DNA of 64,000 nt, from assembly GCF_003334815.1 (NCBI RefSeq), contig NZ_QOWO01000003.1; one strand, given 5' to 3'. Of the stretch, positions 10,422 to 16,909 are shown piece after piece. The position numbers were made by a program, and so were the translations under genes. Source of the stretch: Escherichia coli. Its GTDB lineage: Bacteria > Pseudomonadota > Gammaproteobacteria > Enterobacterales > Enterobacteriaceae. Numbering within the stretch: the stretch's first letter is position 1; every line of letters begins with the position of its first letter. A model generated the notes under the pieces. It saw only the letters and a list, made by a program, of their open reading frames with translations. It had not been told where the DNA came from and made no database searches.

Positions 10422-11474
10422 CTACTCCTGTTGCAGACGTTTGAGTAGCTCCAGTTCGGCCTGGAAATCGACGTAGTGGGGGAGTTTGAGGTGTGAGACA
10501 AAGCCTGCGGCTTCGACGTTGTCGGCATGTGCCAGCACGAACTCTTCATCCTGCGCCGGGCCTGTCGCGTGCTCGCCGTACTCCGGGGCTTGCAGAGCGC
10601 GGTCGACCAGCGCCATCGCCATCGCTTTGCGCTCGCTCATGCCGAACACCAGCCCGTAGCCGCGCGTGAAGTGCGGCGGCTCACCCGGCGGGTCGATAAA
10701 ACCGTTAACCATTTCACACTCAGTCATCAGCAGTTCGCCGACGTTCACCGCAAATCCCAGCTCTTCCGGCACAATCGACACGTCGATATAGCCGCTGCGG
10801 ATCTCGCCTGCGAACGGGTGATTGCGCCCGTAACCGCGTTGGGTGGAGTAGGCCAGCGCCAGCAAATAGCCTTCGTCGCCGCGCATCAACTGCTGCAAAC
10901 GGGAGGAGCGTGAGCAGGGGTAAACCGGCGGCGTGCGGGTGATGTCATCCGGCTGTGCGCCGCTATCCTCTTCAAACTTCGCCAGCCCCTGACGCGCCAG
11001 CAGGCTGAAAACGTGCGGCGACGGCTGCTGTTCGCTGTCGGCGGTGGTCAGCGTCGGCGCTTCGCCGTTTGCCAGCAGGGTAAAATCGAGCAGGCGATGG
11101 GTGTAGTCGTAGGTTGGGCCAAGCAGCTGGCCGCCGGGAATGTCTTTATAAACGGCGGAGATACGGCGTTCGAGACGCATCCCGGTGGTGTCGAGCGGCT
11201 CGCTTACCGCCAGCTTCGCCAACGTGGTGCGGTAGGCGCGCAGCAGGAAAATCGCTTCAACGTTATCGCCGCTGGCCTGTTTCAGCGCCAGCGCCGCCAG
11301 TTCGCGGTCGGCAATGCCGCCTTCGGTCATCACGCGATCTACCGCGAGGTTAAGCTGCTGTTCAATCTGGGCGACGCTCAGTTCGGGCAAATCGGTATCG
11401 CCTCGGCGTCGGCTCTCTTGCAGGGCGTGGGCGGCGTCGATCGCCTTCTCGCCCCCTTTCACGGCAACGTACAT
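10422..11474 (-). CDS. phnI: C-P lyase core complex subunit (ribosyl-triphosphate forming nucleosidase)
   Basis: ORF 10422..11594; start placed at ATG that overlaps the phnH stop by 1 bp ([16 protein letters not shown]...); exact start not verified. Confidence 0.88.
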   Translation of the reverse strand: MYVAVKGGEKAIDAAHALQESRRRGDTDLPELSVAQIEQQLNLAVDRVMTEGGIADRELAALALKQASGDNVEAIFLLRAYRTTLAKLAVSEPLDTTGMRLERRISAVYKDIPGGQLLGPTYDYTHRLLDFTLLANGEAPTLTTADSEQQPSPHVFSLLARQGLAKFEEDSGAQPDDITRTPPVYPCSRSSRLQQLMRGDEGYLLALAYSTQRGYGRNHPFAGEIRSGYIDVSIVPEELGFAVNVGELLMTECEMVNGFIDPPGEPPHFTRGYGLVFGMSERKAMAMALVDRALQAPEYGEHATGPAQDEEFVLAHADNVEAAGFVSHLKLPHYVDFQAELELLKRLQQE

Positions 11475-12058
11475 CAGCACACCTCCACATGAGTGGTTCG
11501 CGGAATAGCCAGCAGGCGCTCGCCACAGGTCAGGATCAGGTCGATGCCGAGCGGGAACGGATGCGGGCGCTCGGTGAGTTCGTGCAGAATGCACTCCGGC
11601 AGCTGCGGAGCGATCATTCGTTCTTCGGCAATACCCGCACCAGTAAGGCGCAACATGCGTCCGCCGCTCAGGCTGGCGACCTGTAAAATCAGCGTCGCAC
11701 CCGCTTCCGGCGCAACGGCGGTGCCGGTGGAAAGGGCGTTGAGCTGTTCGCTGGAAATCGCCTCATCCGTCACCGCGAAGGTCGCCTGTTCCGGCTGGCT
11801 GACCAGCGGCGCGTTGGTATGAAAACGCAGGCTCTGGTTGACGATATCGTTATTTAATGGGGTAGAAAGCCACACCGGCGTGTCGTTATCGGCCAGCGTC
11901 AGCAGCACGCTGGTGGTGGCGATATTCAGCGGTTGCCAGCCGCGTTTGAGCTGATGCAGGGCGACAATCACGCCCGGCTCGCTCATGGCCTTTAACAGGC
12001 GACGAAAACTGTGCTGGGCATCCTGCACGGGAAGCATAAAAGCGGTTTCCAGGGTCAT
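11474..12058 (-). CDS. phnH: C-P lyase core complex subunit
   Basis: 194-aa ORF; 4-bp overlap with phnG stop; operon position. Confidence 0.9.
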
Positions 12059-12507
12059 GCGTTGTCTCCGCGAACCATCGTAAAGAAGTCGACCCGGCTG
12101 GCGTTCACTTCGGCCTGGCGTGCGGCAATGCGTGCCATACGGTCAGCGTCCAGCGGGGCAATAAGGGTTTCTGATAAGTTTTGAAAGTGGCGAGATTGCT
12201 GCATCAGCGCGTCAATCAGCGCGCAGCGTTCGGCGTGCTGTTTATCACGCCCCTGCACCCAGCTGTAGCCGAGCGTGCCGTCAGTCAGGCGCACGGCGGC
12301 GCGGGTCAGCGTGGCGTCGCCGGCAAAAAAACGTTCGCCGGTGCCGCCCATCCGCGCCTGAATCTGTACCAGGCCAGTTTCAGCGGCGCGGATCACCTCA
12401 TAGTCGGCGGTGATGTTTAGCGCGTTCAGGCGTGCTGCCAGTTCAGCCGGTTGGCTGTGCGCCAGCACGGACATCCAGTGCTGGCGGGTCGCGGTATCTG
12501 CGTGCAT
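12055..12507 (-). CDS. phnG: C-P lyase core complex subunit
   Basis: 150-aa ORF; directly abuts phnF stop. Confidence 0.9.
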
Positions 12508-13233
12508 TCAGTGCTCCATAGTGAATTCAATCATGTCGGCGCGCGTCAGGCTGACGGAGTACTCCGCCGGGCTGCTTTCACCGTCACGGTGGTTAAGGGT
12601 GCGCACGCACAGCAGCGGCGACATATTCGGGATTTCAAGACGCTGGCACTCTTTGGCCTGGGCGCGGCGGGCGCTGATCCGCGTCTGGCTGCGGCGCAGC
12701 GCAATTCCGGTTTGCTCGCGCAGAAAATCGTGCAGCGAGCCGCTGTCGAAGCGTTGCAGCGTCGGCCAGAGGGTGAGGTCCGCGAAGTAGTGGTCGATTA
12801 AACAGAGCGCGACGCCGTTGACACGACGCAGGGTGCGCAGGTGGATGACGTTCTCCCCCTCGGTAATCCCCAGTGCGTCAGCGACGTGGCCGGACGCGGG
12901 GCGCAATACCGAAAGCAGTTTTTCGCTGGTGGGATGGCTGCCCTGATCCAGCAGATTCTGGCTAAAACGCGCCTGGGCGTTGAGCGGGTAATCGAACGGG
13001 CGCATCAGCACCAGCACGCCGACGCCCTGACGGCGCTGTACCCAGCCTTTTTCCACCAGTTGGTCGATGGCGCGGCGCAGGGTGTGGCGATTCACCTCAA
13101 AGCGCGCTGCCAGTTGCTGCTCGGCGGGAAGATAGTCGCCGCAGCGGTAGTGTTGACGAAGCTCCTGCTCAAGTTTTGCGGCTATCTCTTGATAGCGTGT
13201 TGGGTAGCTGGTCGGATGTGTAGACAAGTGCAT
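12508..13233 (-). CDS. phnF: GntR-family transcriptional repressor of phosphonate operon
   Basis: ORF 12508..13242; start at internal ATG (MHLSTHPTSYPTRYQEIA..., 241 aa); GntR HTH plus UTRA-like C-terminal domain. Confidence 0.88.
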   Translation of the reverse strand: MHLSTHPTSYPTRYQEIAAKLEQELRQHYRCGDYLPAEQQLAARFEVNRHTLRRAIDQLVEKGWVQRRQGVGVLVLMRPFDYPLNAQARFSQNLLDQGSHPTSEKLLSVLRPASGHVADALGITEGENVIHLRTLRRVNGVALCLIDHYFADLTLWPTLQRFDSGSLHDFLREQTGIALRRSQTRISARRAQAKECQRLEIPNMSPLLCVRTLNHRDGESSPAEYSVSLTRADMIEFTMEH

Positions 13234-13253: not shown

Positions 13254-14041
13254 TCAGATAAAGTGCTTACGCAACCGTTGAGAGAGGAAATCCAGCAGGC
13301 TGACCGTGACGATGATAAGCACCATCAGGGCGCAGGTTTGTTGGAACTGGAAACCGCGAATCGCTTCCCACAGGGTGACGCCGATCCCGCCTGCGCCGAC
13401 CATGCCGACGACGGTCGCCGAGCGGACGTTGGATTCGAAGCGATAGAGGGAGTAGGAGATCAGCAGTGGCATCACCTGTGGCAGCACGCCGTAGAGGATC
13501 TCTTCGAGCTTGTTGGCACCGGTGGCGCGAATGCCTTCCACCGGGCCGGGTTCAATCGCTTCCACCGCTTCGGAAAGCAGCTTGGAGAGCACGCCGGTGG
13601 TGTGGATAAACAGCGCCAGCACGCCAGCACGCCAGCGAACGGGCCGAGGCCGACGGCGACCACGAACAGCATGGCGAAGACCATTTCGTTAATGGCGCGG
13701 CAGGCGTCCATCAGGCGGCGAACGGGCTGGTAAACCCACCACGGCACCAGGTTTTCGGCGCTCATCAGGCCAAAGGGGATGGAGAGAACCACCGCCAGCG
13801 CGGTGCCCCAGACGGCGATTTGCAGCGTGACGGCCATTTCGGTGAGGTAATCCTGCCACTGGCTGAAATCGGGCGGGAAGAAGTCGGCGGCGAACGTCGC
13901 CATGTTGCCGCCGTCTTTGATCAGCGTAAGCGGGGCCATTTCCGCGCCCTGCCACGAGACGACCAACACGGCGAGTACAACGGCCCAGCTCAGAAGCGAG
14001 AACCAGCTGCGCTTGGGTGGGGCGATGGTGATGGTTTGCAT
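13254..14041 (-). pseudogene. phnE: phosphonate ABC transporter permease, interrupted by a frameshift (two overlapping ORFs in different frames)
   Basis: ORFs 13472..14104 and 13254..13622 are both hydrophobic permease-like and overlap out of frame; tandem 8-bp repeats gccagcac x2 plus gccagcga at 13615..13638 sit at the junction. Confidence 0.85.
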
Positions 14042-14056
14042 GTTTGGCTCCGGTCT

Positions 14057-14144
14057 GTAGGCCGGATAAGGTGCTTGCACCGCATCCGGCATCAACGCCT
14101 GCACATTGTCGGATGCGACGCCGGGGCGTCTTATCCGACCTACG
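14057..14144. repeat. REP/BIME palindromic element pair (phnD-phnE intergenic)
   Basis: Seen directly: gtaggccggataaggtgcttgcaccgcatccggcatc and cggatgcgacgccggggcgtcttatccgacctacg. Confidence 0.85.
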
Positions 14145-14146
14145 AT

Positions 14147-15163
14147 TTACTGCACCGCTTTACTCACCGAACTCATCGCGCTTAGCGCGTTGTTCAGGCG
14201 GTCCAGGTCATCCAGCTGCGCCTGAATCTCGGTGGTTTTTGCCAGCTTGTCCTGCTCATTCAGTCCTTTATTGCTTTTCACGCCCTGCATCTCTTTAAAC
14301 AGCGCGAGCTGGCGAATCGGCACCAGTTGCAGGTCGCTGGAAGCGCGGAATGGCGCCCAGCCCAGGCGTTCCAGCACCGCTTTTTCTTCCGGCGTTTTGC
14401 CGTAGTTCATAAAGAAGTCGTAGATCTTGTCTTTGGTGGTTTCGGAAAGATTCTTGCGCCAGACGATCGGATCGCCTGGGATCAGCGGCGACTTCCAGAT
14501 CACCTTCAGTTCTTTCAGCTTCTCTGGCGCGGAGGTTTTCAGCTTGTCGAGGTTTTCGGTGTTGTTGGTGGCAACATCCACCTGCTTGTTGGCGACGGCC
14601 AGCGCGTTGGTTTCATGCCCGGCGTTGACGGTGCGCTTGAAGTCGCTGGCGGAGATATTGTTTTTGGCGAAGACGTAGTAGCCGGGGACGAGGAAGCCAG
14701 AGGTGGAGTTAGGATCGCCATTGCCAAAGGTGAGATCTTTCCGCTTCGCCAGCAGATCGTTCAGGTTGTTGATCGGACTGTCTTTGTTGACGATCAACAC
14801 GCTCCAGTAACCCGGCGATCCATCCGCCGCGACCGTCTGGGCGAAGACCTGGCCATTGGCGCGATCCACCGCTTCCATCGCCGACAGATTGCCGTACCAG
14901 GCGATATCCACTTTATTGAAGCGCATCCCCTGGATAATGCCCGCGTAGTCCGGGGCAAAGAAGGCGTTGACCTTCACGCCCAGCTTCTTCTCCATATCCT
15001 GCAAGAACGGCGTCCATTGCGGTTTCAGGTTTTGCTGTGATTCCGTTGAAATAATGCCGAAATTCAACGCCTTTTCCTGCTCTTCGGCGTGCGCCGGGCT
15101 TAACAGGGTGCTGAGGCTGAACATGCTGGTGAAGGCCAGCGAGGCAATTATCTTAGCGTTCAT
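14147..15163 (-). CDS. phnD: phosphonate ABC transporter periplasmic binding protein
   Basis: 338-aa ORF with signal peptide MNAKIIASLAFTSMFSLSTLLSPAHA. Confidence 0.92.
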   Translation of the reverse strand: MNAKIIASLAFTSMFSLSTLLSPAHAEEQEKALNFGIISTESQQNLKPQWTPFLQDMEKKLGVKVNAFFAPDYAGIIQGMRFNKVDIAWYGNLSAMEAVDRANGQVFAQTVAADGSPGYWSVLIVNKDSPINNLNDLLAKRKDLTFGNGDPNSTSGFLVPGYYVFAKNNISASDFKRTVNAGHETNALAVANKQVDVATNNTENLDKLKTSAPEKLKELKVIWKSPLIPGDPIVWRKNLSETTKDKIYDFFMNYGKTPEEKAVLERLGWAPFRASSDLQLVPIRQLALFKEMQGVKSNKGLNEQDKLAKTTEIQAQLDDLDRLNNALSAMSSVSKAVQ

Positions 15164-15187
15164 TCGTTTTCCTCAATGATGGGGATG

Positions 15188-15976
15188 TCAGGCAGCTTTC
15201 GCGTTCTCTTCGACGCGGTTAATGCTGCGGTAGAGATGGTCAAAACGTTCGTTATCAAACTGTTGGCTGCTGCCGTCGTAGAAGACGTGCCCCTGGCGCA
15301 GGGCGACGATGCGTTCGCAGTAGCGCAGGGCGTAATCCACCTGATGCAGCGTGACGACCACGGTGATGCCGTCGTTCTGGTTGATGTCGCGCAGGGTGTC
15401 CATCACGATGCGCGCTGATTCTGGGTCCAGCGAGGCGATGGGTTCATCGGCCAGAATCACTTTCGCCTGCTGCATCAGCGCACGGGCAATCGCCACACGT
15501 TGCTGCTGGCCGCCGGAGAGGGTGGAAACGCGCTGATGGGCAAAATGCACCATGCCAACGCGGGTCAGCGCCTGTAACGCGCGCTGTTTCTGCTCGCCGG
15601 TGAACCAGCTAAAACAGGTGCGCCAGAACGGCGTGCTGCCGAGCGCGCCAATCAGCACGTTCTCCAGTACGCTCAGGCGGTTCACCAGGTTGAATTGTTG
15701 GAATATGTAGCCGGTATGGGCGCGGCTTTTGCGGATATCGCGGGCCAGGCGGCCTTCGCGCTGGACTGTGCGGCCCAGCAGCTCGATATGGCTACCGACA
15801 GATTTATCGCCGGTAATCAAACCGCTTAAGTGACGTAAAAGGGTGGATTTTCCGGAACCCGACGGCCCAAGCAGAGCCACCATTTCACCGTGATGAATGT
15901 TCAGATCAACCGCATGCAGCGCCTGATGCTGATTGAAGGTTTTGGCGAGCTTCTCGACACGGATAATCGTTTGCAT
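15188..15976 (-). CDS. phnC: phosphonate ABC transporter ATP-binding protein
   Basis: 262-aa ORF; Walker [10 protein letters not shown], signature LSGGQQQR; first gene of phn operon. Confidence 0.93.
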
Positions 15977-16615: not shown

Positions 16616-16890
<275 letters not shown>

Positions 16891-16909
16891 CTTACCGATC
16901 ACAATACAA

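What the first reader, a model, noticed from the sequence alone, without database searches (positions are those of the whole stretch)
13600..13650. phnE disrupted at a tandem 8-bp repeat: slip-strand switch silencing the C-P lyase transporter
Two permease-like ORFs (13472..14104 and 13254..13622) overlap out of frame, and exactly at the junction the sequence reads gccagcac-gccagcac-gccagcga (13615..13638). Loss or gain of one 8-bp unit would restore or break the frame, so the whole phosphonate-uptake operon is cryptic but revertible in this strain. This is consistent with what is known for K-12 (three repeat units) versus phn-positive strains (two units).
Basis: partly seen in the sequence, partly recalled or inferred. 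Interest (0 to 1): 0.55.

Follow-up and report, generated by a model that had tools for sequence, protein, structure and literature searches.

The report
Known K-12 phnE 8-bp repeat frameshift
This is the long-known E. coli K-12 defect in which an extra copy of an 8-base repeat breaks the phosphonate-transporter gene phnE and can be lost again to restore it, so the finding is correct but not new.

Summary
Window 13614..13636 holds 2.9 perfect copies of CGCCAGCA (sense strand GCTGGCGT) inside phnE (13254..14041, minus strand). It is the only such tract in the 64 kb, and no shuffle produced one. With three units the gene is 788 bp and frameshifted after about residue 140. Removing one unit gives a 780-bp ORF whose 259-aa product is identical to BL21 PhnE and passes the PhnE equivalog model.

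The window is E. coli K-12. RefSeq marks this gene "frameshifted". Held papers, citing Makino 1991 and Iqbal 2004, describe three rather than two copies of the 8-bp repeat as the cause of the cryptic phn operon, with phnE+ revertants arising by slippage. The finding is therefore already known.

One correction: gaining a unit does not restore the frame. Only 2 or 5 units are in frame.

A survey of 5,426 complete genomes added detail:
- About 1,000 records have 3 units, nearly all on one K-12-type haplotype.
- 12 records have 4 units.
- Only 5 records on that haplotype have reverted to 2 units.
- Independent expansions occur on other haplotypes (3, 7 and 10 units).

The tract is a real variable-number repeat, but in nature the OFF allele is inherited stably and is not switching rapidly.

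The parts
13614..13636 (-). 8-bp tandem repeat tract with three units (plus strand CGCCAGCA x2.9; sense strand GCTGGCGT/TGCTGGCG). This is the site of the frameshift and of slippage.
   Evidence: The deletion reported in revertant RI57, GCGCCAGCA to G at MG1655 position 4,322,802, corresponds to window 13613..13621.
13254..14041 (-). phnE pseudogene (phosphonate ABC transporter permease), 788 bp, frameshifted
   Evidence: RefSeq annotation of the identical EMG2 sequence reads 'frameshifted'. The in-silico repaired product scores 311.5 bits against TIGR01097 (cutoff 216.7). Pfam BPD_transp_1 covers residues 88-258.
13472..14041 (-). Translated N-terminal fragment: about 140 native PhnE residues followed by about 49 out-of-frame residues, with a stop at 13472..13474
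   Evidence: It matches PhnE profile positions 8-133 only, at 127.7 bits, which is below the cutoff.
13254..13622 (-). C-terminal half of phnE in the original frame (a 122-aa ORF from a GTG inside the repeat). It is probably not translated as a functional unit.
   Evidence: It matches PhnE profile positions 131-251, at 176.5 bits, which is below the cutoff.
14147..15976 (-). phnD (14147..15163) and phnC (15188..15976): substrate-binding protein and ATPase of the same importer, both intact, upstream of phnE
5155..13233 (-). phnF (regulator) and phnG-phnP (C-P lyase pathway), none flagged as a pseudogene, downstream of phnE in the operon

Best explanation
This is the classical cryptic phn(EcoK0) allele of E. 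coli K-12. phnE encodes the membrane permease of the PhnCDE phosphonate and phosphate importer. In functional alleles the gene contains two tandem copies of an 8-bp unit (GCTGGCGT). Here there are three.

The extra 8 bp shifts the frame after about residue 140, in the middle of the permease domain. The ribosome then reads about 49 wrong residues and stops. Without the permease, phosphonates cannot be imported. The cell is therefore Phn-negative, although the binding protein, the ATPase, the regulator and the C-P lyase genes are annotated as intact.

Because the unit is directly repeated, nascent-strand slippage during replication can remove one unit (three to two). That restores an ORF whose product is identical to PhnE of phosphonate-positive strains. 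Such revertants are selected on phosphonate, under phosphate starvation, or when other phosphate transporters are deleted. Slippage can also add units.

Shown here: the tract, the frame arithmetic, identity of the repaired product to functional PhnE, and copy-number variation among genomes.
Taken from papers: the Phn-negative phenotype, reversion by the 8-bp deletion, and attribution to slippage.
Inferred: that replication slippage, and not some other deletion route, is the molecular event.
For: - Tract and frame.
- Break point at PhnE profile positions 131-133.
- Permease domain 88-258 is split.
- The window is K-12 and phnE is annotated as frameshifted.
- The repaired product is 100% identical to BL21 PhnE (WP_001193500.1), and to phnE of an MG1655 derivative from Sao Paulo that has two units.
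- Literature: three versus two copies of the 8-bp tandem repeat (PMC7566553); deletion of 5'-GCTGGCGT restores the phnE frame and reactivates PhnCDE transport, and revertants arise by slippage (PMC6469041); the 8-bp deletion was found in all five strains evolved under phosphate starvation and is said to occur at high frequency (PMC4759930); the 8-bp duplication is lost in Phn+ mutants (PMC3463581).
- Slippage in both directions is visible in genomes. On the K-12 haplotype there are about 1,004 records with 3 units, 12 with 4 units and 5 with 2 units.
- There is an independent 3-unit allele on a haplotype identical to BL21.
- 7-unit and 10-unit alleles occur on a third haplotype, in two strains 1 SNP apart over 3 kb.
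Against: Nothing contradicts the core explanation. There are three caveats.

- I could not read the two primary papers (Makino 1991, Iqbal 2004). Switching rates and reversibility from ON to OFF rest on citations in other papers and on my recollection.
- The population data do not look like a fast switch. Copy number is tightly linked to haplotype.
- The probe counts are approximate. Megablast needs 28-base seeds, multi-piece joins blur the identity bands, and about 1,170 genomes were not reached by the first probes.
Confidence: 0.95

Rival explanations
1. The allele is an ordinary, stably inherited pseudogene and not an evolved ON/OFF switch. The three-unit allele arose once or a few times. 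It persists by descent and by recombination into other lineages. Its revertibility is an incidental property of a short duplication.
For: - All eight sampled 3-unit and 4-unit strains are 0-2 SNPs from K-12 over 3 kb, while the sampled 2-unit strains are 47-108 SNPs away.
- On the K-12 haplotype only 5 records have two units, against about 1,004 with three.
- On other haplotypes expansions are very rare: 1 record on BL21-type flanks, and 2 of 83 exact matches on the third type.
- In STEC 2013C-4991 the K-12-like sequence is a patch of about 17 kb within a divergent background. That strain has also lost phnJ, which suggests further operon decay.
Against: - Copy number does vary (2, 3, 4, 7 and 10 units), and it does so between near-identical haplotypes. 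Examples are TB354 versus TB4019, and OkiPb01713 versus 2013C-4991.
- Reversion is readily selected in the laboratory.
- All other phn genes in K-12 are annotated without a pseudogene flag, which is unexpected for an old dead operon.
- This rival disputes only the adaptive 'switch' label. It does not dispute the mechanism.
Confidence: 0.35
2. The extra unit is a sequencing or assembly artefact at a short repeat.
For: None specific. Short repeats can be miscalled in some technologies.
Against: About 1,000 independent complete genomes carry exactly three units. RefSeq annotates them as frameshifted. Several papers confirmed three units by sequencing, including Sanger confirmation of the revertant's deletion.
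Confidence: 0.01
3. Full-length PhnE is made from the three-unit allele by programmed ribosomal frameshifting or transcriptional slippage, so the gene is not really off.
For: None found. The two frames overlap at the repeat.
Against: K-12 with three units is reported as phosphonate growth-deficient, and only the 8-bp deletion activates transport. I tested no slippery heptamer or stimulatory structure, and the tract is not a homopolymer of the kind that causes transcriptional slippage.
Confidence: 0.02

Closest known systems
phn(EcoK0) cryptic allele of E. coli K-12 phnE (Makino et al. 1991; Iqbal et al. 2004, as cited in PMC6469041, PMC3463581 and PMC7566553)
   Same: It is the same gene, the same 8-bp unit, the same three-unit state and the same position. 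The deletion reported at MG1655 position 4,322,802 maps onto window 13613..13621. The window sequence is identical to K-12.
   Different: Nothing differs. This is that allele.
Slipped-strand-mispairing contingency loci of pathogens (for example tetranucleotide or pentanucleotide repeats in Haemophilus and Neisseria surface genes). This comparison is from general knowledge.
   Same: A tandem repeat whose unit length is not a multiple of three lies inside a coding region. Changes in copy number toggle the reading frame. Copy number varies between isolates.
   Different: The tract is very short (2-4 units as a rule, against tens). The state is strongly linked to haplotype across thousands of genomes and is not scattered. 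It controls a nutrient importer, not a surface antigen.
Other cryptic K-12 genes reactivated by mutation, for example the glpR frameshift variants mentioned in PMC6469041; the bgl and ilvG examples are from general knowledge
   Same: A laboratory-strain loss-of-function state is reversed by a simple mutation under selection.
   Different: Here the reversion is a precise, repeat-mediated 8-bp deletion. The same OFF allele is also widespread in natural isolates.

Membership tests
PhnE phosphonate ABC transporter permease (NCBIfam TIGR01097 equivalog) | Full-length match above the curated cutoff (216.7 bits) | tested here: met
   The repaired two-unit product scores 311.5 bits over profile positions 8-251 of 252. 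The gene as it stands does not meet the cutoff: the fragments score 127.7 and 176.5 bits. So it is a pseudogene of this family.
PhnE phosphonate ABC transporter permease (NCBIfam TIGR01097 equivalog) | Binding-protein-dependent transport inner-membrane domain | tested here: met
   Pfam BPD_transp_1 covers residues 88-258 with E = 5.6e-26 in the repaired product. The frameshift at about residue 140 splits it.
PhnE phosphonate ABC transporter permease (NCBIfam TIGR01097 equivalog) | Operon context phnC-phnD-phnE-phnF-phnG..phnP | tested here: met
   Annotation of the identical EMG2 sequence.
K-12 cryptic phn(EcoK0) allele | Three tandem copies of the 8-bp unit where functional alleles have two | tested here: met
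   The literature statement is in PMC7566553.
K-12 cryptic phn(EcoK0) allele | Loss of one unit yields a functional phnE | tested here: met
   In silico, the product is 100% identical to BL21 PhnE. An MG1655 derivative with two units is annotated with an intact PhnE, WP_001193500.1. Function of revertants is shown in PMC6469041. The phenotype itself was not testable here.
Phase-variable (contingency) locus by slipped-strand mispairing | Intragenic tandem repeat with a unit length that is not a multiple of 3 | tested here: met
   8-bp unit.
Phase-variable (contingency) locus by slipped-strand mispairing | Copy number varies among closely related isolates | tested here: met
   2, 3 and 4 units occur on the K-12 haplotype. 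7 and 10 units occur in two strains 1 SNP apart.
Phase-variable (contingency) locus by slipped-strand mispairing | High-frequency, reversible switching within a clonal population | not testable with these tools
   OFF to ON under selection is documented in held papers. The title of Iqbal 2004 claims reversibility, but that paper could not be read.
Phase-variable (contingency) locus by slipped-strand mispairing | ON and OFF states distributed largely independently of the flanking haplotype, as expected for a fast switch | tested here: not met
   Three-unit alleles are almost confined to one haplotype. Only about 0.5% of records with that haplotype have two units. Expansions on other haplotypes are rare.

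The most novel reading that the evidence does not exclude
The three-unit OFF allele is not a laboratory curiosity. It is a long-lived natural polymorphism carried on one phn haplotype that has spread among E. coli lineages, partly by recombination. In one STEC it sits in a patch of about 17 kb. It may be kept OFF by selection, for example because of a cost of PhnCDE or uptake of harmful phosphonates. The same tract occasionally expands to 4, 7 or 10 units. This would recast the 'phase-variable switch' as a balanced or lineage-specific loss-of-function allele with rare reversion.
Probability: 0.3. Interest if true: 0.35.

Novelty: already known. Interest (0 to 1): 0.1.

Why it matters
For K-12 users the practical point is that phosphonate uptake, and PhnCDE-mediated phosphate uptake, is off. 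It can switch on by a precise 8-bp deletion under phosphate stress, and that has confounded evolution and transporter-knockout experiments.

None of this is new. The only incremental value is the population picture:
- Roughly a fifth of the complete E. coli genome records carry the OFF allele, and many of those records are laboratory K-12 derivatives.
- Nearly all of them are on one haplotype, with rare 2-unit and 4-unit derivatives.
- Independent expansions on other haplotypes reach 10 units.

This tempers the view of the site as a rapidly switching contingency locus.

Tried and rejected
- I tried to read the primary papers (PMC515159, PMC207835, PMC3256660). None is held, so switching frequencies are not quoted.
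- A one-unit probe was uninformative. Its top hits were two-piece joins over three-unit alleles, so I cannot say whether one-unit alleles exist.
- Identity bands of the 4-unit probe were likewise blurred by two-piece joins. The count of 12 comes from listed single-piece 91-bp matches and from the two-piece listing of the 2-unit probe.
- The first probes did not reach about 1,170 genomes, because SNPs near the tract break the 28-base seed. Probes for two more flank types were added, but coverage is still incomplete.
- I considered and rejected an assembly artefact and programmed frameshifting (see the rival explanations).
- No in-frame 5-unit allele was seen among the expansions listed for the two flank types surveyed this way.
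- The 9-bp repeat at 63142..63177 was checked and is the ordinary GroEL C-terminal GGM tail.

Full report
**Observation**

Tandem Repeats Finder reports 13614..13636 as 2.9 perfect copies of CGCCAGCA. On the coding (minus) strand this is GCTGGCGT or TGCTGGCG. The two overlapping out-of-frame ORFs exist at 13472..14104 and 13254..13622, both on the minus strand. The annotated phnE start is the ATG at 14041.

The tract is the only perfect tandem tract of period 4-12 with at least 2.8 copies in the whole 64-kb window. None of 200 first-order Markov shuffles produced a period-8 tract that long.

**Frame test**

| Units | Length 14041 to 13254 | Result |
|---|---|---|
| 2 | 780 bp | Intact, 259 aa |
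| 3 (this window) | 788 bp | Frameshift, stop at codon 190 |
| 4 | 796 bp | Frameshift |
| 5 | 804 bp | In frame, 8 extra residues |

"Loss of one unit restores" is right. "Gain of one unit restores" is not.

The repaired product matches the NCBIfam PhnE equivalog TIGR01097 at 311.5 bits (cutoff 216.7). The two fragments match profile positions 8-133 and 131-251, each below the cutoff, so the break is at the repeat. Pfam BPD_transp_1 spans residues 88-258, so the permease domain is cut at about residue 140.

**Identity of the locus**

Window 1-25000 is 100% identical to K-12 strains EMG2 and an MG1655 derivative. In EMG2 the map is alsCAB-alsR, rpiB, yjdP, phnP through phnC, yjdN, yjdM, crfC and onward. 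phnE lies at 13254..14041 (minus strand) and is flagged as a frameshifted pseudogene. All other phn genes are annotated without a pseudogene flag. A BL21 derivative has a 780-bp intact phnE, WP_001193500.1. The repaired K-12 protein is identical to it.

**What is already known**

[quoted passage not shown] The authors confirmed three copies in BW25113.
- PMC6469041 reports a phnE+ revertant that lost 5'-GCTGGCGT. The change is listed as GCGCCAGCA to G at MG1655 position 4,322,802, which corresponds to window 13613..13621. The paper says the deletion restores the reading frame and reactivates transport via PhnCDE, and attributes revertants to spontaneous slippage, citing Makino 1991 and Iqbal 2004.
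- PMC4759930 found the same 8-bp deletion in all five strains evolved under phosphate starvation. It describes the deletion as slippage between direct repeats occurring at high frequency.
- PMC3463581 describes the 8-bp duplication and its loss in Phn+ mutants.

The primary papers themselves are not held. The finding is thus a correct rediscovery of a documented allele.

**Survey of 5,426 complete E. coli genomes**

I used allele-specific probes of 30 bp flank, tract, 30 bp flank. All counts are approximate.

- About 1,004 records have three units on K-12-type flanks (994 at 99% identity or more, plus 10 at 95-99%).
- About 3,246 records have two units on those flanks.
- Exactly 12 listed records have four units. 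VR50 and the four other 4-unit strains I fetched are annotated as frameshifted.
- About 1,170 genomes were not reached by these first probes.

Many three-unit records are natural isolates from people, pigs, poultry, dogs, wild birds and sediment, not only laboratory K-12.

**Haplotype structure**

I compared 3 kb around the tract. All eight sampled 3-unit or 4-unit strains are 0-2 SNPs from K-12. These are KO11FL (an E. coli W derivative), 2013C-4991, TB354, TB4019, VR50, EH10-18-47, FDAARGOS_1248 and SW071611. Seven sampled two-unit strains are 47-108 SNPs away.

Searching with the repaired K-12 haplotype found only five records that combine this haplotype with two units:
- two near-identical pig ETEC isolates;
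- two hospital isolates, Z217-2 and Z217-4;
- one MG1655 derivative from Sao Paulo with an intact phnE. This is probably the published revertant RI57, but that link is my inference.

From rank six onward, every hit spans 3,083 bp, meaning three units.

**Independent events on other haplotypes**

- Bovine strain 35 has three units on a haplotype with 0 SNPs from BL21.
- 2013C-4974 has ten units and OkiPb01713 has seven. They sit on a third haplotype and differ by 1 SNP over 3 kb. Both are annotated as frameshifted.
- O157:H7 carries an interrupted tract, CGCCAGCA-CACCAGCG.

**Spread of the OFF haplotype**

In STEC 2013C-4991 the K-12-identical sequence is limited to window positions of about 7-24 kb, at 0-1 differences per kb over most of that stretch. 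It is flanked by 20-120 differences per kb, so the haplotype sits in a patch that looks recombined. That strain has also lost phnJ and parts of phnI and phnK. KO11FL is K-12-like across all 33 kb compared.

**Interpretation**

The mechanism is settled. A third 8-bp unit frameshifts the PhnE permease, and precise loss of a unit restores it. This most plausibly happens by replication slippage. That last step is inferred here and asserted in the literature.

What the genome data add is a caution about the word "switch". The tract does change in nature, with 2, 3, 4, 7 and 10 units seen. But copy number is tightly linked to haplotype, reversion on the K-12 haplotype is seen in about 0.5% of records, and expansion on other haplotypes is rarer still.

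That pattern fits one of two situations. Either the unselected rates are modest, or selection holds the OFF state on this haplotype. It does not fit a rapidly equilibrating contingency locus. I cannot distinguish the two situations without rate and fitness measurements.

**Verdict**

- Observation: confirmed.
- Interpretation: supported, with the minor corrections above.
- Novelty: already known.
- Interest: low.

Noticed in passing
window 16616..16895: A 100-bp tandem array containing REP-like palindromes, 2.8 copies at 95% identity, lies between yjdN and yjdM. The yjdN-yjdM gap differs by multiples of 100 bp between strains: 257 bp in MC1061, 357 bp here, 457 bp in STEC 2013C-4991 and 657 bp in KO11FL. 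So this array also varies in copy number.
   Followed up: partly
L025:1501-1639 and L026:1501-1615: Natural isolates 2013C-4974 (human, USA) and OkiPb01713 (bovine, Japan) carry 10 and 7 units of the phnE repeat. They share a haplotype and differ by 1 SNP over 3 kb. Both genes are annotated as frameshifted.
   Followed up: yes
L029 (STEC 2013C-4991), corresponding to window 9251..10610: On the three-unit phnE haplotype, this strain has also lost phnJ and parts of phnI and phnK. It carries the K-12-like sequence only as a patch of about 17 kb in a divergent background. Its yjdP has an internal stop.
   Followed up: partly
L019:1501-1575 (O157:H7 FRIK2533): The second repeat unit carries a G-to-A change (CGCCAGCA-CACCAGCG). 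This interrupts the repeat and might make slippage less likely in this lineage.
   Followed up: no
window 63142..63177: Four copies of a 9-bp unit (GGCGGCATG) encode the C-terminal GGM repeats of GroEL. This is a well-known ordinary feature.
   Followed up: yes
window 4862..4944: An imperfect 21-bp tandem repeat lies inside yjdP, which is annotated as 'DDRRRQL repeat protein'.
   Followed up: no
window 14042..14146: The phnD-phnE intergenic region contains a REP-like palindromic element. Strain PSJ-42 has an intergenic region 44 bp shorter here.
   Followed up: no
E. coli genome collection (no window coordinates): Five matches to the phnE region lie on plasmid records, not on chromosomes. They were not examined.
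   Followed up: no
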